Shown here: positions 8,338-10,779 of the stretch, piece after piece
Position numbering within the stretch: the first letter of the stretch is position 1
How the letters are laid out: each line of letters starts with the position of its first letter
Origin: Escherichia coli
GTDB lineage: Bacteria; Pseudomonadota; Gammaproteobacteria; Enterobacterales; Enterobacteriaceae
Assembly: GCF_030013205.1 (NCBI RefSeq)
Contig: NZ_CP122648.1
Strand: one strand, 5' to 3'
Length of the DNA: 64,000 nucleotides
Position numbers and translations under genes: made by a program
Notes under the pieces: model-generated
The model's database searches: none
Told to the model about the DNA's origin: nothing
Seen by the model: only the letters and a program-made list of their open reading frames with translations

Positions 8338-10779
8338 TTAAAAATCAGCCTGACTCGGGATCAGTTTTTGCCAGATAGCTGAAACGTATTTTGCCTGGTA
8401 ACGAGCGTCATCAAGTGCATTATGGCGCTCACCTTCGAATGGGATAGCAGTTCTGGCATCGAAGTCTATGGCTTTCCCCAGCTCAACGATTGTGCGTACA
8501 TCGCGATCGTTGCAGTAGCGCCACGGGCAGGGGATACCCTGTCGTTCGTATGAACGGCGTAAAATCACGTTGTCGAAGTTGGCCCCATTACCCCAGACCT
8601 GAACAAAAAATTCACCGGAGTTTTCGGCGATAAATTCCCGCAATTGCAGTAGTGCATCATCTAACGGGATTTCATCGGTCATAATGGCAGACTGCGCTTC
8701 ACGTGATTGCTTCAGCCACCATTTAATGACGTCACGATCAATGACTCCGCCAGCAGTATCCAGATCGATGGTCTTGCTAAATTCCGGTCCCATATCTCCG
8801 GTTTGTGGATCGAAAAATATTGCGCCTATTGAGATAATCGGGGCATCGGGATTTTTTCCCATGGTTTCAAGGTCGATCATCAGATGAATCCCCGCTCTGC
8901 TGGTGGATGTGAGCTTATGATGACCATTCACCTTAATTAAGGGATCTGTCGCCTCGCCAGTTTTATTATCGCTGGCGTGATGCTGATTGCCGCTAGGGTT
9001 CTCCTTGTGTGGATGTTCAGCGCCTTCCATTTCCTCCGGATCATTTTCCTGAACTTCAACCTGATTCTCTTCATCGAATGTTTCCTGGTATGTTGCGTCG
9101 CCCATCACCGCGCCACAATCAGGGCAGTTGCCGCCACCGCTCTGACCGCAGGCGGTGCAGACTTTTTCCGGTTCCTGTTGCGCTACTGGTTCGGATTGTT
9201 TCGTTTCTGGCTCGTTTTGTAACGCATTTGGGCTGTTTTGTTCCGCTTTTTGGTCGTTCCGTTCCGATTCATGCTGGTTCTGGTTCACAGAATCGCGAGT
9301 CTGGATCCCCTTGACCCATTTCGGATCATTAGGGTCGCTAATCCCCTCAACAAATTCACCACGCGATACAGCAAGTAACTTATCGGCGTCAGGCTGGCTG
9401 ATATTGGCTGCCTGCATAATTTTGTTTACTTCGTCAGCGGTGACTTTTACTTGGTTAGCGGAACTCACCTGCGACTGAGCATCCAGCGACTGCGCGTTCT
9501 GGCAATGTTCAGTTGTATCCGGTTCCATTGTTTCAGTTGTTGCCTGTTCACCTGCCATTGCGTCAGATGGTTGTGGTTTTTCTTCTTCTGTTTCACGCTC
9601 AGTAACCACCTCGCGGTTAATTTCTTCCAGGATATCTTTTTCCGGCGTATGCCGGGCAGCTGTGAGAGTTTCCTTGCTGGGGTTCTCGTGATCAGTTTCC
9701 GTCAAATAGGCGTTGATATACCCCTGAAGGCGTCCCGGGTAGTGATAAAATTCAGGGTGTGCGCTTCGGATAAGTGCAAAAATAGCGGCGCGGGAATAGT
9801 CCAGAACACCCGGGGTTGCACGAAGTGCTGCGGACCATTCTTTGAACGGACTTTCTTTTTTCAGGACTACTTCTTTTGCGCGACGATAAACGCTGCCGGG
9901 AATTTCATAAATATTAAAATCCATCGGAAGTGTGGCTGCTGCAATCTCCACATCCAGTGTGTCGAGGGTGTGTACTAAATTCGGATTGCGATCGGTTTTG
10001 TTCCCACCGCCAGCATTAGCACCGGAAGCCGTGCGGGTGATGCGTGAAACACGATTTCCTTTCATCCACTCTTTTGTCAGCAGACCCCGATCAGTGTAGT
10101 CAGCGTCCAGGTATGCTTCGAAAAAAGCAGTTATTAGTCCCAGGTATGAATTACCAGGATTAGGGAAAACTTTGTCAGTGTCACGAACCAGTTTGTGGAG
10201 GTCGCGAATCTCCAGCGAGTCGAGCAGACTGGTTTTATGCGAAATAGCCAGGGCAGTAACAGCCGGTAGTTCTTCAGCCCGTGCAATGTGTAATGCCTGG
10301 AGTTCGTCGCGTGAGACGTGCGTTACTGGTTTTTCGCTGCCGTGTTGAGCAAGCCAACGAATGGGCAGTTCCTGACCGGAGACAGGCAGAAGCATGCTCT
10401 CCTCAATCTCAGTCATGTCTTCGCCGTTGATGTTGGTATTGTCAGTGCTGGCTGGTTTGTCCTGAACAGAGGGGGAAGGGCCGATAAATGTCATTGTGAT
10501 GCCATCTTTCCCGCCTTTTTCATAGCGGTTGCAGAATTCAGTGTCAAACACGCCTTCTGGCGGAAGGTCGTCAACAACGGGCAAATTGACGCGGACGGGT
10601 TTTTTAAAGTCGTCTTCATCATAATCGTTGTCATCCATTGCGGTAATGCAGCGGGAGATTGCAACAGATAATTTTTTTGCTGTAGTCCAGTAAAAACCAC
10701 CTTTAATTCCCAGGCGTTTTCTTACTTTGTCATTTTTTGCTTCGCAATATAGTGCAAATTCTTCTTTATCAGTGCTCAT
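8338..10779 (-). CDS. RecE-like (exodeoxyribonuclease VIII family) protein with a C-terminal DEDDh-type 3'-5' exonuclease domain
   Basis: 813-aa ORF; N-terminal and central regions resemble Rac RecE as I recall it; C-terminus carries DnaQ-like motifs [15 protein letters not shown] and HNALDDA. Confidence 0.6.
   Translation of the reverse strand: [813 protein letters not shown]

What the first reader, a model, noticed from the sequence alone, without database searches (positions are those of the whole stretch)
8338..10779. RecE-like protein whose C-terminus is a DEDDh 3'-5' exonuclease domain, with no recT-like partner
The last ~190 aa of the 813-aa ORF show DnaQ-family motifs ([22 protein letters not shown]). 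Upstream regions resemble the non-catalytic part of Rac RecE as I recall it (for example [12 protein letters not shown]...[21 protein letters not shown] and the CxxCGQ...[17 protein letters not shown] segment). Rac RecE instead carries a PD-(D/E)XK 5'-3' exonuclease and is followed by recT. No annealase gene lies between this ORF and xis, so the module looks like a domain swap rather than a RecET recombination system.
Basis: partly seen in the sequence, partly recalled or inferred. Interest (0 to 1): 0.45.

Follow-up and report, generated by a model that had tools for sequence, protein, structure and literature searches.

The report
RecE-like head fused to 3'-5' exonuclease

Summary
Observation confirmed and interpretation supported, but the protein is not new.

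- **Architecture.** ORF 8338-10779 (-) encodes 813 aa. Residues 58-615 match Rac RecE residues 50-591 (58% identity), and the match stops there. Residues 632-803 are a Pfam Rv2179c-like DEDDh domain (E 5e-66) with all five catalytic residues. The closest solved structure is T4 DexA, not the RecE nuclease.
- **No annealase.** RecT, Gam, lambda-Exo-like and RecE-nuclease homology is absent from the whole window. The same holds for the complete viable phage mEp460_ev081.
- **Context.** The gene is the last early-left gene (DicF, dicB, ydfD-like gene, exonuclease, xis, int) of a defective lambdoid prophage in E. coli.
- **Prevalence.** The protein is RefSeq WP_063085014.1, 'exonuclease'. Its DEDDh-coding DNA occurs in 4064 of 5426 complete E. 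coli genomes, against 1736 for the canonical RecE nuclease end.
- **Modularity.** RecE-type heads occur with a PD-(D/E)XK nuclease, with a DEDDh nuclease, or with neither. The DEDDh unit also sits behind a different head, whose remnant is K-12 ydfE, and also stands alone.
- **Literature.** Zheng et al. 2025 list the nuclease-only 'Tritos' module type. No experiment addresses this fusion.
- **Likely role.** A 3'-5' DNase trimming DNA ends for phages that rely on host RecBCD/RecA. This is inferred.

The parts
8338..10779 (-). Whole ORF, 813 aa. Identical to RefSeq WP_063085014.1 'exonuclease'. Mosaic protein with a RecE-type head and a DEDDh exonuclease.
9595..10779 (-). Folded N-terminal region, aa 1-395. 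It has a small alpha/beta part (about aa 1-100) and a helical part (about aa 120-395). It contains Pfam Exonuc_VIII (aa 57-189) and the family's most conserved core (about aa 245-345). No known fold relative, function unknown.
8935..10608 (-). Stretch homologous to the non-catalytic part of Rac RecE: aa 58-615 match RecE 50-591. Mosaic at DNA level: aa 114-265 at 92% nucleotide identity, aa 398-615 at 75%. Homology stops at window position 8936.
8887..9594 (-). Acidic linker predicted to be disordered, aa 396-631 (pI 4.4, net charge -29), with two short helices.
9115..9159 (-). CxxC-x8-CxxC zinc-ribbon-like motif, aa 541-555, shared with RecE.
   Evidence: Weak Pfam DZR hit at E 0.098. AF2 pLDDT about 75.
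8371..8886 (-). DEDDh 3'-5' exonuclease domain, aa 632-803. Catalytic residues are D636, E638, D736, H786 and D791.
   Evidence: Pfam PF16473 E 5.3e-66. D636, D736, H786 and D791 invariant in 38 sequences including T4 DexA; E638 conserved in at least 90%. Fold matches DexA. dN/dS about 0.10.
8076..8279 (-). xis-like DUF4224 gene, 58 bp downstream of the exonuclease gene.
7027..8077 (-). Tyrosine integrase, frameshifted, next to tRNA-Ser (about 6909-6999) and mtfA.
10989..11686 (-). IS1 transposase. The element splits the ydfD-like DUF1482 gene (fragments at 10874-10972 and 11743-11847) just upstream of the exonuclease gene. It could have a polar effect on expression in this copy.
11835..12023 (-). 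dicB, in the same early-left operon.
12197..12248 (-). DicF sRNA. Together with dicB it marks this as a dicBF-type early-left operon.
   Evidence: Rfam RF00039, 73.4 bits against a gathering score of 48

Best explanation
The gene encodes a modular protein of the lambdoid early-left operon. It has three parts:
- a folded RecE-type N-terminal region of unknown function, about 395 aa;
- an acidic, disordered tether of about 235 aa carrying a small zinc ribbon;
- a C-terminal DEDDh exonuclease of the T4 DexA / Rv2179c family (PF16473).

**Shown.**
- The architecture itself.
- An intact two-metal DEDDh active site.
- Strong purifying selection on the nuclease domain.
- The position as the last gene before xis-int, downstream of DicF, dicB and a ydfD-like gene.
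- The absence of any annealase or RecBCD inhibitor, both in this prophage and in a complete viable phage carrying the sister gene.

**Inferred.**
- On prophage derepression or infection the protein is made from the early-left transcript.
- It removes nucleotides from DNA 3' ends in the 3'-to-5' direction, as its nearest characterised relative T4 DexA does.
- The RecE-type head, via the long tether, delivers or oligomerises the nuclease at DNA ends.
- It is therefore not half of a RecET-type exonuclease/annealase pair.
- Most likely it trims 3' tails of linear phage or broken DNA, so that phages lacking their own recombinase and Gam can use host RecBCD-Chi/RecA. These are the Chi-rich 'Tritos-type' phages.

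In this particular copy the prophage is defective and an IS1 lies just upstream, so expression here is uncertain.
For: **Architecture**
- Pfam finds PF06630 plus PF16473.
- RecE homology ends at aa 615, which is RecE aa 591.
- The RecE C-terminus belongs to a different family, PF12684.
- NCBIfam's exodeoxyribonuclease VIII equivalog matches only model positions 1-603 of 877. It scores 939 bits, below its 1269-bit cut-off.

**Nuclease domain**
- D636, D736, H786 and D791 are invariant in the 38-sequence alignment that includes T4 DexA; E638 is kept in at least 90%.
- The AF2 model has pLDDT 85.8. The top PDB matches are DexA 8ken/8kel (E 9e-12 to 1.5e-10), then RNase T and Orn.
- A sequence search of PDB also finds DexA, at E 2.8e-5.
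- dN/dS is about 0.10 at dS 0.23-0.26 for the DEDDh domain.

**Head and tether**
- AF2 gives a confident fold for aa 1-395 and a disordered aa 396-631.
- The linker has pI 4.4.

**Modularity**
- Of 79 family representatives of at least 450 aa, 44 have the head only, 20 add a PD-(D/E)XK nuclease and 15 add a DEDDh nuclease.
- A head-only gene lies next to gam-recT-exo in Shigella phage 75/02 Stx.
- The Tritos/Qin sister has an unrelated aa 1-265 but a 96% identical DEDDh domain.

**No annealase**
- Established.
- The same layout holds in all eight other loci inspected, including the complete phage mEp460_ev081.
- Zheng et al. 2025 class Tritos as nuclease-only: no strand-annealing protein, SSB or anti-RecBCD, and Chi-rich (PMC12315714).

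**Chi sites**
- 10 on the top strand and 4 on the bottom in the 20.4-kb prophage, 0.69 per kb. The flanking chromosome has 0.33 per kb.

**Operon context**
- DicF, dicB and a DUF1482 gene lie upstream.
Against: - No biochemical or genetic data exist for this fusion or its sister.
- The Pfam family is named after an exoribonuclease, M. tuberculosis Rv2179c, so DNA as the substrate is an inference.
- According to Zheng et al., DnaQ-like 3'-5' exonucleases usually inhibit rather than promote homologous recombination.
- The same authors regard int-proximal DnaQ-type genes as outside the canonical Rec module, and often present alongside a full Rec module.
- The int-proximal slot of lambdoid phages typically holds accessory genes (my own knowledge). 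A free-standing Salmonella homologue sits in that slot after unrelated genes.
- The Chi excess rests on 14 sites in a remnant.
- A role for the head in targeting is conjecture. It has no detectable structural relative.
Confidence: 0.5

Rival explanations
1. It is a weapon in conflicts between phages or between phage and host. The prophage-encoded DEDDh nuclease would degrade the DNA of superinfecting phages, for example T-even phages with modified cytosines, like the 'HREX' DexA homologue EcD. Alternatively it would destroy a host immune nucleic acid.
For: - Kang et al. 2025 report that an E. coli DexA homologue, EcD, expressed from a plasmid, degrades T4 DNA and protects against T4 (PMC12153337).
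- The window domain belongs to the same DexA-related family.
- The gene is intact in a heavily decayed prophage and is present in 75% of complete E. coli genomes, in up to 7 places per genome.
- It occupies the int-proximal slot, which often holds accessory genes. The free-standing Salmonella homologue follows a DndB-like gene there.
Against: - The two residues said to recognise 5hmC are not conserved. DexA W152 aligns with C756 and D169 with A770.
- DexA D90, whose loss is said to give the defence-type dimer, is retained as D708.
- EcD is a different protein (it starts MIDTET and ends TIPETY) and I could not retrieve it.
- PADLOC has no matching defence model beyond a generic CRISPR-associated DEDDh hit at E 6e-6.
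- The gene lies in the repressor-controlled early-left operon, not in a lysogen-expressed moron cassette.
- Viable phages keep it.
Confidence: 0.2
2. It is an exoribonuclease, like Rv2179c, acting on RNA 3' ends. Possible substrates are early-left transcripts, DicF or other sRNAs, or host RNAs.
For: - The best Pfam model is named after the M. tuberculosis 3'-5' exoribonuclease Rv2179c.
- NCBI names many members '3'-5' exoribonuclease'.
- The structural neighbours RNase T, Orn and REXO2 act on RNA.
- The gene shares an operon with the DicF sRNA.
Against: - The closest solved relative, by both sequence and fold, is the DNA exonuclease T4 DexA.
- The domain is fused to the head of a DNA-recombination exonuclease.
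- RNase T and Orn also cut DNA, so fold neighbours do not discriminate between substrates.
Confidence: 0.1
3. It is a functional RecE equivalent that works with an annealase supplied in trans, for example a RecT from another prophage in the same genome.
For: - It shares 558 aligned residues with RecE.
- E. coli genomes often carry several lambdoid prophages. 1736 of 5426 complete genomes have recE-recT.
Against: - The RecE nuclease domain alone substitutes genetically for full-length RecE (review PMC11611040). That is the part missing here.
- DEDDh enzymes have 3'-5' polarity, which would produce 5' tails rather than the 3' tails that annealases are loaded on.
- The complete phage mEp460_ev081 has no annealase at all.
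Confidence: 0.05
4. In this island the gene is a silent relic. It is kept intact only because the prophage decayed recently, and it does nothing for the cell.
For: The integrase is frameshifted, ydfD is split by IS1 immediately upstream, the large terminase gene is truncated and the structural genes are gone.
Against: - The ORF is full length and at least 99% identical to 813-aa proteins recorded on hundreds of contigs.
- The family's nuclease domain is under strong purifying selection, dN/dS about 0.10.
- This rival concerns only this copy, not the family.
Confidence: 0.1

Closest known systems
Rac prophage RecE (exonuclease VIII), E. coli K-12 b1350
   Same: - The non-catalytic N-terminal region, the acidic linker and the zinc ribbon are shared: aa 58-615 match RecE 50-591 at 58% identity, and part of it is 92% identical in DNA.
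- It occupies a similar place in an early-left operon near xis-int.
   Different: - It has no PD-(D/E)XK nuclease domain (PF12684), and recT, ralR and rcbA are not downstream.
- A DEDDh domain of predicted opposite polarity stands in that place.
- It scores below the NCBIfam equivalog cut-off.
T4 DexA (exonuclease A; PDB 8KEL/8KEN)
   Same: - It is the nearest solved structure and the nearest characterised enzyme.
- It shares the DEDDh fold and all five catalytic residues.
- It is a phage-encoded 3'-5' DNA exonuclease.
   Different: - Identity is only about 21-28%.
- DexA is a free-standing 227-aa protein with extra loops.
- Its proposed 5hmC-recognition residues W152 and D169 are C756 and A770 here.
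Exonuclease gp27 of phage Tritos, the mEp460 homologue, and the intact Qin-locus 'exonuclease' (K-12 ydfE is its remnant)
   Same: - The slot is the same: dicF-dicB-ydfD-exonuclease-xis-int.
- The linker is the same and the DEDDh domain is 96% identical.
- There is no annealase. Zheng et al. 2025 list it as a nuclease-only module.
   Different: Its first 265 or so residues are unrelated to the RecE-type head and give no PF06630 hit. K-12 keeps only those first 256 aa, as the ydfE pseudogene.
M. tuberculosis Rv2179c, founder of Pfam PF16473
   Same: The Pfam family is the same, at 222 bits.
   Different: Rv2179c is a free-standing bacterial exoribonuclease.
EcD / 'HREX' defence exonuclease (Kang et al. 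2025)
   Same: It is an E. coli DexA homologue with conserved catalytic residues.
   Different: - EcD is a separate short protein whose sequence was not retrievable.
- The proposed specificity residues are not conserved in the window protein.
- No defence test exists for the fusion.
Nuclease-less RecE-type proteins ('RecE-2' of Zheng et al., for example the 682-aa protein of Shigella phage 75/02 Stx)
   Same: The N-terminal region is the same type: query aa 1-570 align at 47% identity by tblastn, and the NCBIfam RecE model matches its aa 1-627.
   Different: They have no nuclease domain, and in phage 75/02 Stx the gene is followed by gam, recT and a lambda-Exo-like gene.

Membership tests
RecE / exodeoxyribonuclease VIII (RecET two-component recombinase) | N-terminal Exonuc_VIII region (PF06630) | tested here: met
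   PF06630 at E 3.1e-36 over aa 57-189. 58% identity to RecE residues 50-591.
RecE / exodeoxyribonuclease VIII (RecET two-component recombinase) | C-terminal PD-(D/E)XK nuclease domain (PF12684; RecE aa about 600-866) | tested here: not met
   No Pfam hit. No BLASTP alignment beyond RecE aa 591. tblastn of RecE 600-866 against the window gives only noise, E >= 0.36. The fold search returns DEDDh structures only.
RecE / exodeoxyribonuclease VIII (RecET two-component recombinase) | Full-length match to the NCBIfam equivalog NF007259 above its cut-off | tested here: not met
   939 bits against a cut-off of 1269. Only model positions 1-603 of 877 are matched.
RecE / exodeoxyribonuclease VIII (RecET two-component recombinase) | Adjacent annealase gene (recT) | tested here: not met
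   Only 58 bp lie before xis. No RecT homology anywhere in the window. No annealase family in the Pfam or PHROGs scans.
RecE / exodeoxyribonuclease VIII (RecET two-component recombinase) | 5'-to-3' dsDNA exonuclease activity | not testable with these tools
   Needs a biochemical polarity assay.
DEDDh (DnaQ-like) exonucleases, Rv2179c-like / T4 DexA subfamily (PF16473) | Profile match above the curated threshold | tested here: met
   222.1 bits against a cut-off of 27, covering profile positions 2-177 of 177.
DEDDh (DnaQ-like) exonucleases, Rv2179c-like / T4 DexA subfamily (PF16473) | Catalytic D-E-D-D plus H in motifs ExoI-III | tested here: met
   D636, E638, D736, H786 and D791 align with DexA D7, E9, D119, H186 and D191. 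Four are invariant across 38 sequences; E638 is kept in at least 90%.
DEDDh (DnaQ-like) exonucleases, Rv2179c-like / T4 DexA subfamily (PF16473) | RNase H-like DEDD fold | tested here: met
   AF2 model with pLDDT 85.8. Foldseek finds DexA at E 9e-12 with TM about 0.7, then RNase T, Orn and REXO2.
DEDDh (DnaQ-like) exonucleases, Rv2179c-like / T4 DexA subfamily (PF16473) | 3'-to-5' exonuclease activity, and substrate (DNA or RNA) | not testable with these tools
   Inferred from the family only.
HREX-type defence exonuclease (EcD; Kang et al. 2025) | Conservation of the 5hmC-recognition residues (DexA W152 and D169) | tested here: not met
   They align with C756 and A770. The W152 column is variable across the family.
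HREX-type defence exonuclease (EcD; Kang et al. 2025) | Loss of the tetramer-forming residue (DexA D90) | tested here: not met
   D90 aligns with D708, which is retained, and S87 aligns with P705. The local alignment contains a gap, so the register is uncertain.
HREX-type defence exonuclease (EcD; Kang et al. 2025) | Protection against T4 and selective cleavage of modified DNA | not testable with these tools
   Needs phage challenge and nuclease assays.
'Tritos-type' nuclease-only early-left module (Zheng et al. 2025) | Nuclease present; strand-annealing protein, SSB and anti-RecBCD absent | tested here: met
   Gene order is the same as in Tritos.
'Tritos-type' nuclease-only early-left module (Zheng et al. 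2025) | Abundant Chi sites biased to the top strand | tested here: inconclusive
   10 top-strand and 4 bottom-strand sites in a 20.4-kb remnant, about twice the density of the flanking chromosome. Numbers are small and the genome is incomplete.

The most novel reading that the evidence does not exclude
The RecE-type head may be a targeting platform that works with any nuclease, or with none. It is found with a PD-(D/E)XK nuclease, with a DEDDh nuclease and with neither.

On this reading, the DEDDh fusion carried by three quarters of complete E. coli genomes is a self-sufficient effector with one of two roles:
- driving annealase-independent end processing or joining by 3'-to-5' resection, for phages that rely on host RecBCD-Chi;
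- acting as a widespread prophage nuclease against incoming phage DNA.

Either role would give a first function to the RecE N-terminal domain, whose function the 2023 review (PMC11611040) still calls unknown.
Probability: 0.15. Interest if true: 0.6.

Novelty: already known. Interest (0 to 1): 0.3.

Why it matters
- **Annotation.** Many phage and UniProt records call this protein 'exodeoxyribonuclease VIII' or 'RecE'. It lacks RecE's nuclease and its partner, and probably has the opposite polarity. Prophages carrying it should therefore not be scored as having a RecET recombination system.
- **Prevalence.** The DEDDh form is more widespread in E. coli than canonical RecE: 4064 against 1736 of 5426 complete genomes.
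- **K-12.** The finding identifies the K-12 pseudogene ydfE as the stump of such a gene.
- **Open biology.** The family offers a natural experiment on the RecE N-terminal domain, whose function is unknown. It also bears on how lambdoid phages without an annealase or Gam handle their DNA ends.
- **Limit.** None of this is established experimentally, so the practical value today is a corrected annotation and a defined set of experiments.

Tried and rejected
- **K-12 ydfE as a truncated copy of this protein.** Rejected for the window protein: no similarity. It turned out to be the head of the sister 823-aa gene, 99% identical over 256 aa.
- **Retrieving EcD (HAK9828821.1) to measure its identity to the window domain.**
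  - Only the primers are given in the paper's supplement.
  - A 20-mer scan of viral contigs gave one chance hit with no matching ORF.
  - None of ten free-standing homologues starts MIDTET.
- **Other nuclease types behind 'head-only' relatives.** Ten long representatives had no Pfam domain in their extensions.
- **Defence-system membership.** PADLOC gave nothing for the full protein and only a generic DEDDh hit for the domain.
- **Literature.**
  - 'PF16473', and 'exodeoxyribonuclease VIII + dicB + prophage', returned nothing.
  - A 'full-length RecE' search was swamped by 'receptor'.
  - Searches for ydfE found no functional data.
- **Homologue search with the head against the 90%-identity clusters.** It returned only near-identical 813-aa proteins. 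The 50%-identity representative search was needed to get diversity.
- **Promoter and terminator scan around the gene.** Counts were no higher than in shuffled sequence.
- **Unnamed ORFs as cryptic annealases.** The 135-aa and 269-aa ORFs have no Pfam or PDB hit. The 269-aa ORF carries an HNH-like CxxC..DHVPPK..CxxC motif, not an annealase signature.
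Full report
**Where the window comes from**

- The 8 kb around the finding is 100% identical to the chromosome of E. coli K_EC180 and many swine ETEC strains.
- RefSeq annotation places the ORF in a lambdoid prophage inserted beside tRNA-Ser and mtfA.
- The gene order is: int (frameshifted), xis-like DUF4224, 'exonuclease' WP_063085014.1, a ydfD-like DUF1482 gene split by IS1, dicB, ydfC, ydfB, a DUF1391 gene, a repressor-like gene, then cro-like, YdaT-like and replication genes, DUF968, RusA, Q, three tRNAs, lysis genes, HNH and terminase genes.
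- The large terminase gene runs to about window 27,400. Chromosomal genes follow from zinT onward, so the prophage is defective.
- Rfam finds DicF at 12197-12248 on the minus strand. The ORF is therefore the last gene of a dicBF-type early-left operon, directly upstream of xis-int.

**Check of the observation**

- The ORF at 8338-10779 (-) translates to 813 aa.
- Pfam gives PF06630 (Exonuc_VIII) at aa 57-189 (E 3e-36) and PF16473 (Rv2179c-like 3'-5' exoribonuclease) at aa 632-803 (E 5e-66).
- I fetched K-12 Rac recE and recT. BLASTP aligns aa 58-615 with RecE 50-591 at 58% identity, and nothing beyond that.
- At DNA level the similarity is mosaic: 92% over aa 114-265 and 75% over aa 398-615. 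It ends at window position 8936.
- RecE's own C-terminus is the PD-(D/E)XK-like PF12684 domain at aa 615-850.
- The junction lies in the linker just before the RecE nuclease fold. [quoted passage not shown]
- NCBIfam's exodeoxyribonuclease VIII equivalog matches only model positions 1-603 and scores below its cut-off.

**The C-terminal domain**

- A 38-sequence alignment that includes T4 DexA shows the DEDDh residues conserved. They are D636, E638, D736, H786 and D791 here, matching DexA D7, E9, D119, H186 and D191; E638 is the only one not strictly invariant.
- A sequence search of PDB finds only DexA, 8kel/8ken, at E 2.8e-5.
- An AlphaFold2 model (pLDDT 85.8) matches DexA best in Foldseek (E 9e-12 to 1.5e-10, TM about 0.7). 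RNase T, oligoribonuclease and REXO2 follow.
- The first refutation criterion, a RecE-type nuclease fold, is therefore not met.
- The domain is under strong purifying selection. dN/dS is about 0.10 at dS 0.23-0.26, both against phage 640R1 and against Tritos.

**No annealase**

- Only 58 bp separate the stop codon from xis.
- tblastn with K-12 RecT and the RecE nuclease domain (E <= 10) gave only noise (best E 4.9 and 0.36). The RecT, Gam and lambda-Exo-like proteins of Shigella phage 75/02 Stx (E <= 0.01) gave no match.
- Pfam and PHROGs scans of every unnamed ORF in the prophage return regulators, a replication initiator, a Ren-like protein, an HNH-type DUF968 protein or families of unknown function. 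None is an annealase family.
- The second refutation criterion is therefore not met either.

**How common it is, and what surrounds it elsewhere**

- The last 603 bp of the gene are found in 4064 of 5426 complete E. coli genomes, at 8085 places and up to 7 places per genome.
- The corresponding end of canonical recE is in 1736 genomes.
- Database copies of the 813-aa protein are very numerous. They are named 'exonuclease', '3'-5' exoribonuclease', 'Exodeoxyribonuclease VIII' or 'RecE family exodeoxyribonuclease'.
- In all eight other loci I inspected, the order is dicB, ydfD, exonuclease, xis, int, with no annealase. These were phage Tritos, phage vB_EcoS-640R1, the complete viable phage mEp460_ev081, and strains of O111, O157:H7, O7:H4, a Malian commensal and one further draft E. 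coli assembly in which the gene is split into three ORFs.
- The mEp460_ev081 genome has no RecT, Gam or Exo homologue.
- By contrast, a Rac-type phage has recE-recT-ralR.
- Shigella phage 75/02 Stx has a 682-aa RecE-type protein without any nuclease domain, followed by gam, recT and a lambda-Exo-like gene.

**Modularity of the family**

- An exhaustive HMMER search of 50%-identity representatives with aa 1-620 found 267 clusters.
- Among the 79 representatives of at least 450 aa, 44 have the head only, 20 add the PD-(D/E)XK domain and 15 add the DEDDh domain.
- Ten long head-only proteins have no recognisable Pfam domain in their extensions.
- The DEDDh unit is also joined to a different head. 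The 823-aa Tritos/Qin-locus protein shares only 15% identity over aa 57-265 and has no PF06630 hit, but its DEDDh domain is 96% identical.
- Its first 256 residues are 99% identical to the K-12 pseudogene ydfE, which is cut off by IS2.
- Free-standing homologues of about 189 aa exist in Salmonella, Klebsiella and Enterobacter. The Salmonella one occupies the same slot, as the last early-left gene before xis-int.
- The fused domain starts at the same residues as these free-standing proteins. This is compatible with a gene fusion rather than a replacement within Rac RecE.

**The head**

- With a 74-sequence alignment, AlphaFold2 predicts a confident fold for aa 1-395.
- It predicts a disordered, acidic aa 396-631 (pI 4.4, net charge -29) containing two short helices and a CxxC-x8-CxxC ribbon.

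**Literature**

- Zheng, Casjens, Davidson, Amundsen and Smith (Genome Res 2025, PMC12315714) analysed the Rec modules of 246 of the 325 lambdoid genomes in their panel.
  - They report DnaQ-like 3'-5' nucleases in or near Rec modules, and note that such nucleases usually inhibit recombination.
  - They mention nuclease-less 'RecE-2' proteins.
  - They list a 'Tritos' functional type of 4 phages with a nuclease but no strand-annealing protein, SSB or anti-RecBCD, and with abundant Chi (21/6 to 7/2).
- My counts agree: 7 top-strand and 2 bottom-strand Chi sites in mEp460_ev081, and 10 and 4 in the 20.4-kb remnant here. That is 0.69 per kb, against 0.33 per kb in the flanking chromosome.
- Kang et al. 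(NAR 2025, PMC12153337) solved DexA. They report that an E. coli DexA homologue, EcD, degrades T4 DNA and protects against T4 ('HREX').
- EcD is a different short protein, judged from its primers. In the window protein the proposed 5hmC-recognition residues W152 and D169 are C756 and A770.
- I found no experimental work on the fusion itself.

**Interpretation**

- Shown: the architecture, the intact active site, selection on the nuclease domain, the operon position, the absence of a partner, and the wide distribution.
- Inferred: a Mg-dependent 3'-to-5' DNase made from the early-left transcript and tethered to a RecE-type head, trimming DNA 3' ends.
- The most likely setting is phages that rely on host RecBCD-Chi/RecA rather than on their own exonuclease/annealase pair.
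- The precedent is DexA's role at double-strand breaks in intron homing (PMC12153337 abstract).
- The rivals cannot be excluded computationally. They are a defence or counter-defence nuclease, an RNase, and, for this copy only, a silent relic.
- My confidence is about 0.97 for the architecture, about 0.75 for DNA 3'-5' exonuclease activity, and about 0.35-0.4 for the end-processing role.

**Verdict**

- The object is an abundant, already annotated family that recent literature has noted. Novelty is 'already known' and interest is modest.
- The useful outcomes are:
  - a warning that 'exodeoxyribonuclease VIII/RecE' labels on these genes are misleading;
  - the link to K-12 ydfE;
  - a clear experimental plan.

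Noticed in passing
L003:5079-5999 (K-12 Qin ydfE); L012:2630-5101; L013:2630-5101: The K-12 pseudogene ydfE is the first 256 aa (99% identical) of an intact 823-aa DEDDh 'exonuclease'. Other E. coli strains carry this gene at the same Qin locus, and phages Tritos and mEp460 carry it too. In K-12 it is truncated by IS2.
   Followed up: yes
window 16984-17793 (-): A 269-aa ORF in a low-GC stretch, on the opposite strand between the replication and nin-region genes. It carries a CxxC..DHVPPK..CxxCN motif that looks HNH-like. It has no Pfam, PADLOC or PDB sequence hit, and its PHROG family has unknown function. It may be a moron or accessory nuclease.
   Followed up: partly
window 10874-11847: IS1 (transposase CDS at 10989-11686) is inserted in the ydfD-like DUF1482 lysis gene, about 200 bp upstream of the exonuclease gene. 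It may be polar on expression of this copy.
   Followed up: no
window 7027-27400: The prophage is a remnant: the integrase is frameshifted, a TrmB-like gene is frameshifted, and chromosomal genes (zinT onward) follow the large terminase gene where head and tail genes would be. Chi (GCTGGTGG) occurs 10 times on the top strand and 4 on the bottom, 0.69 per kb, about twice the density of the flanking chromosome.
   Followed up: partly
L015-L018:5001-5570 (Salmonella enterica): A free-standing 189-aa homologue of the DEDDh domain sits in the same slot, as the last early-left gene before an excisionase-like gene and int. It follows YfdP, DUF2303 and a DndB-like gene, again with no annealase.
   Followed up: partly
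L010:4001-7810 (Shigella phage 75/02 Stx): A 682-aa RecE-type protein without any nuclease domain lies directly upstream of gam, recT and a lambda-Exo-like gene. The RecE head therefore exists as a separate gene next to a complete Red-like module.
   Followed up: partly
window 13944-13979: A 36-nt near-perfect palindrome (16-bp stem) lies between the DUF1391 gene and the repressor-like gene. The terminator scan picked it up. It could be an operator or a terminator.
   Followed up: no
window 22037-22343: A cluster of three tRNA genes (annotated Ile, Thr, Gly) lies downstream of the Q antiterminator gene, as in many Stx-type and lambdoid prophages.
   Followed up: no
window 825-5604 (-): Two large ORFs of 925 and 675 aa correspond to a frameshifted, truncated Ig-like-domain protein pseudogene in RefSeq. 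It lies upstream of a tRNA-Asn and mtfA, near a second IS1 that splits a glycosyltransferase family 9 gene.
   Followed up: no
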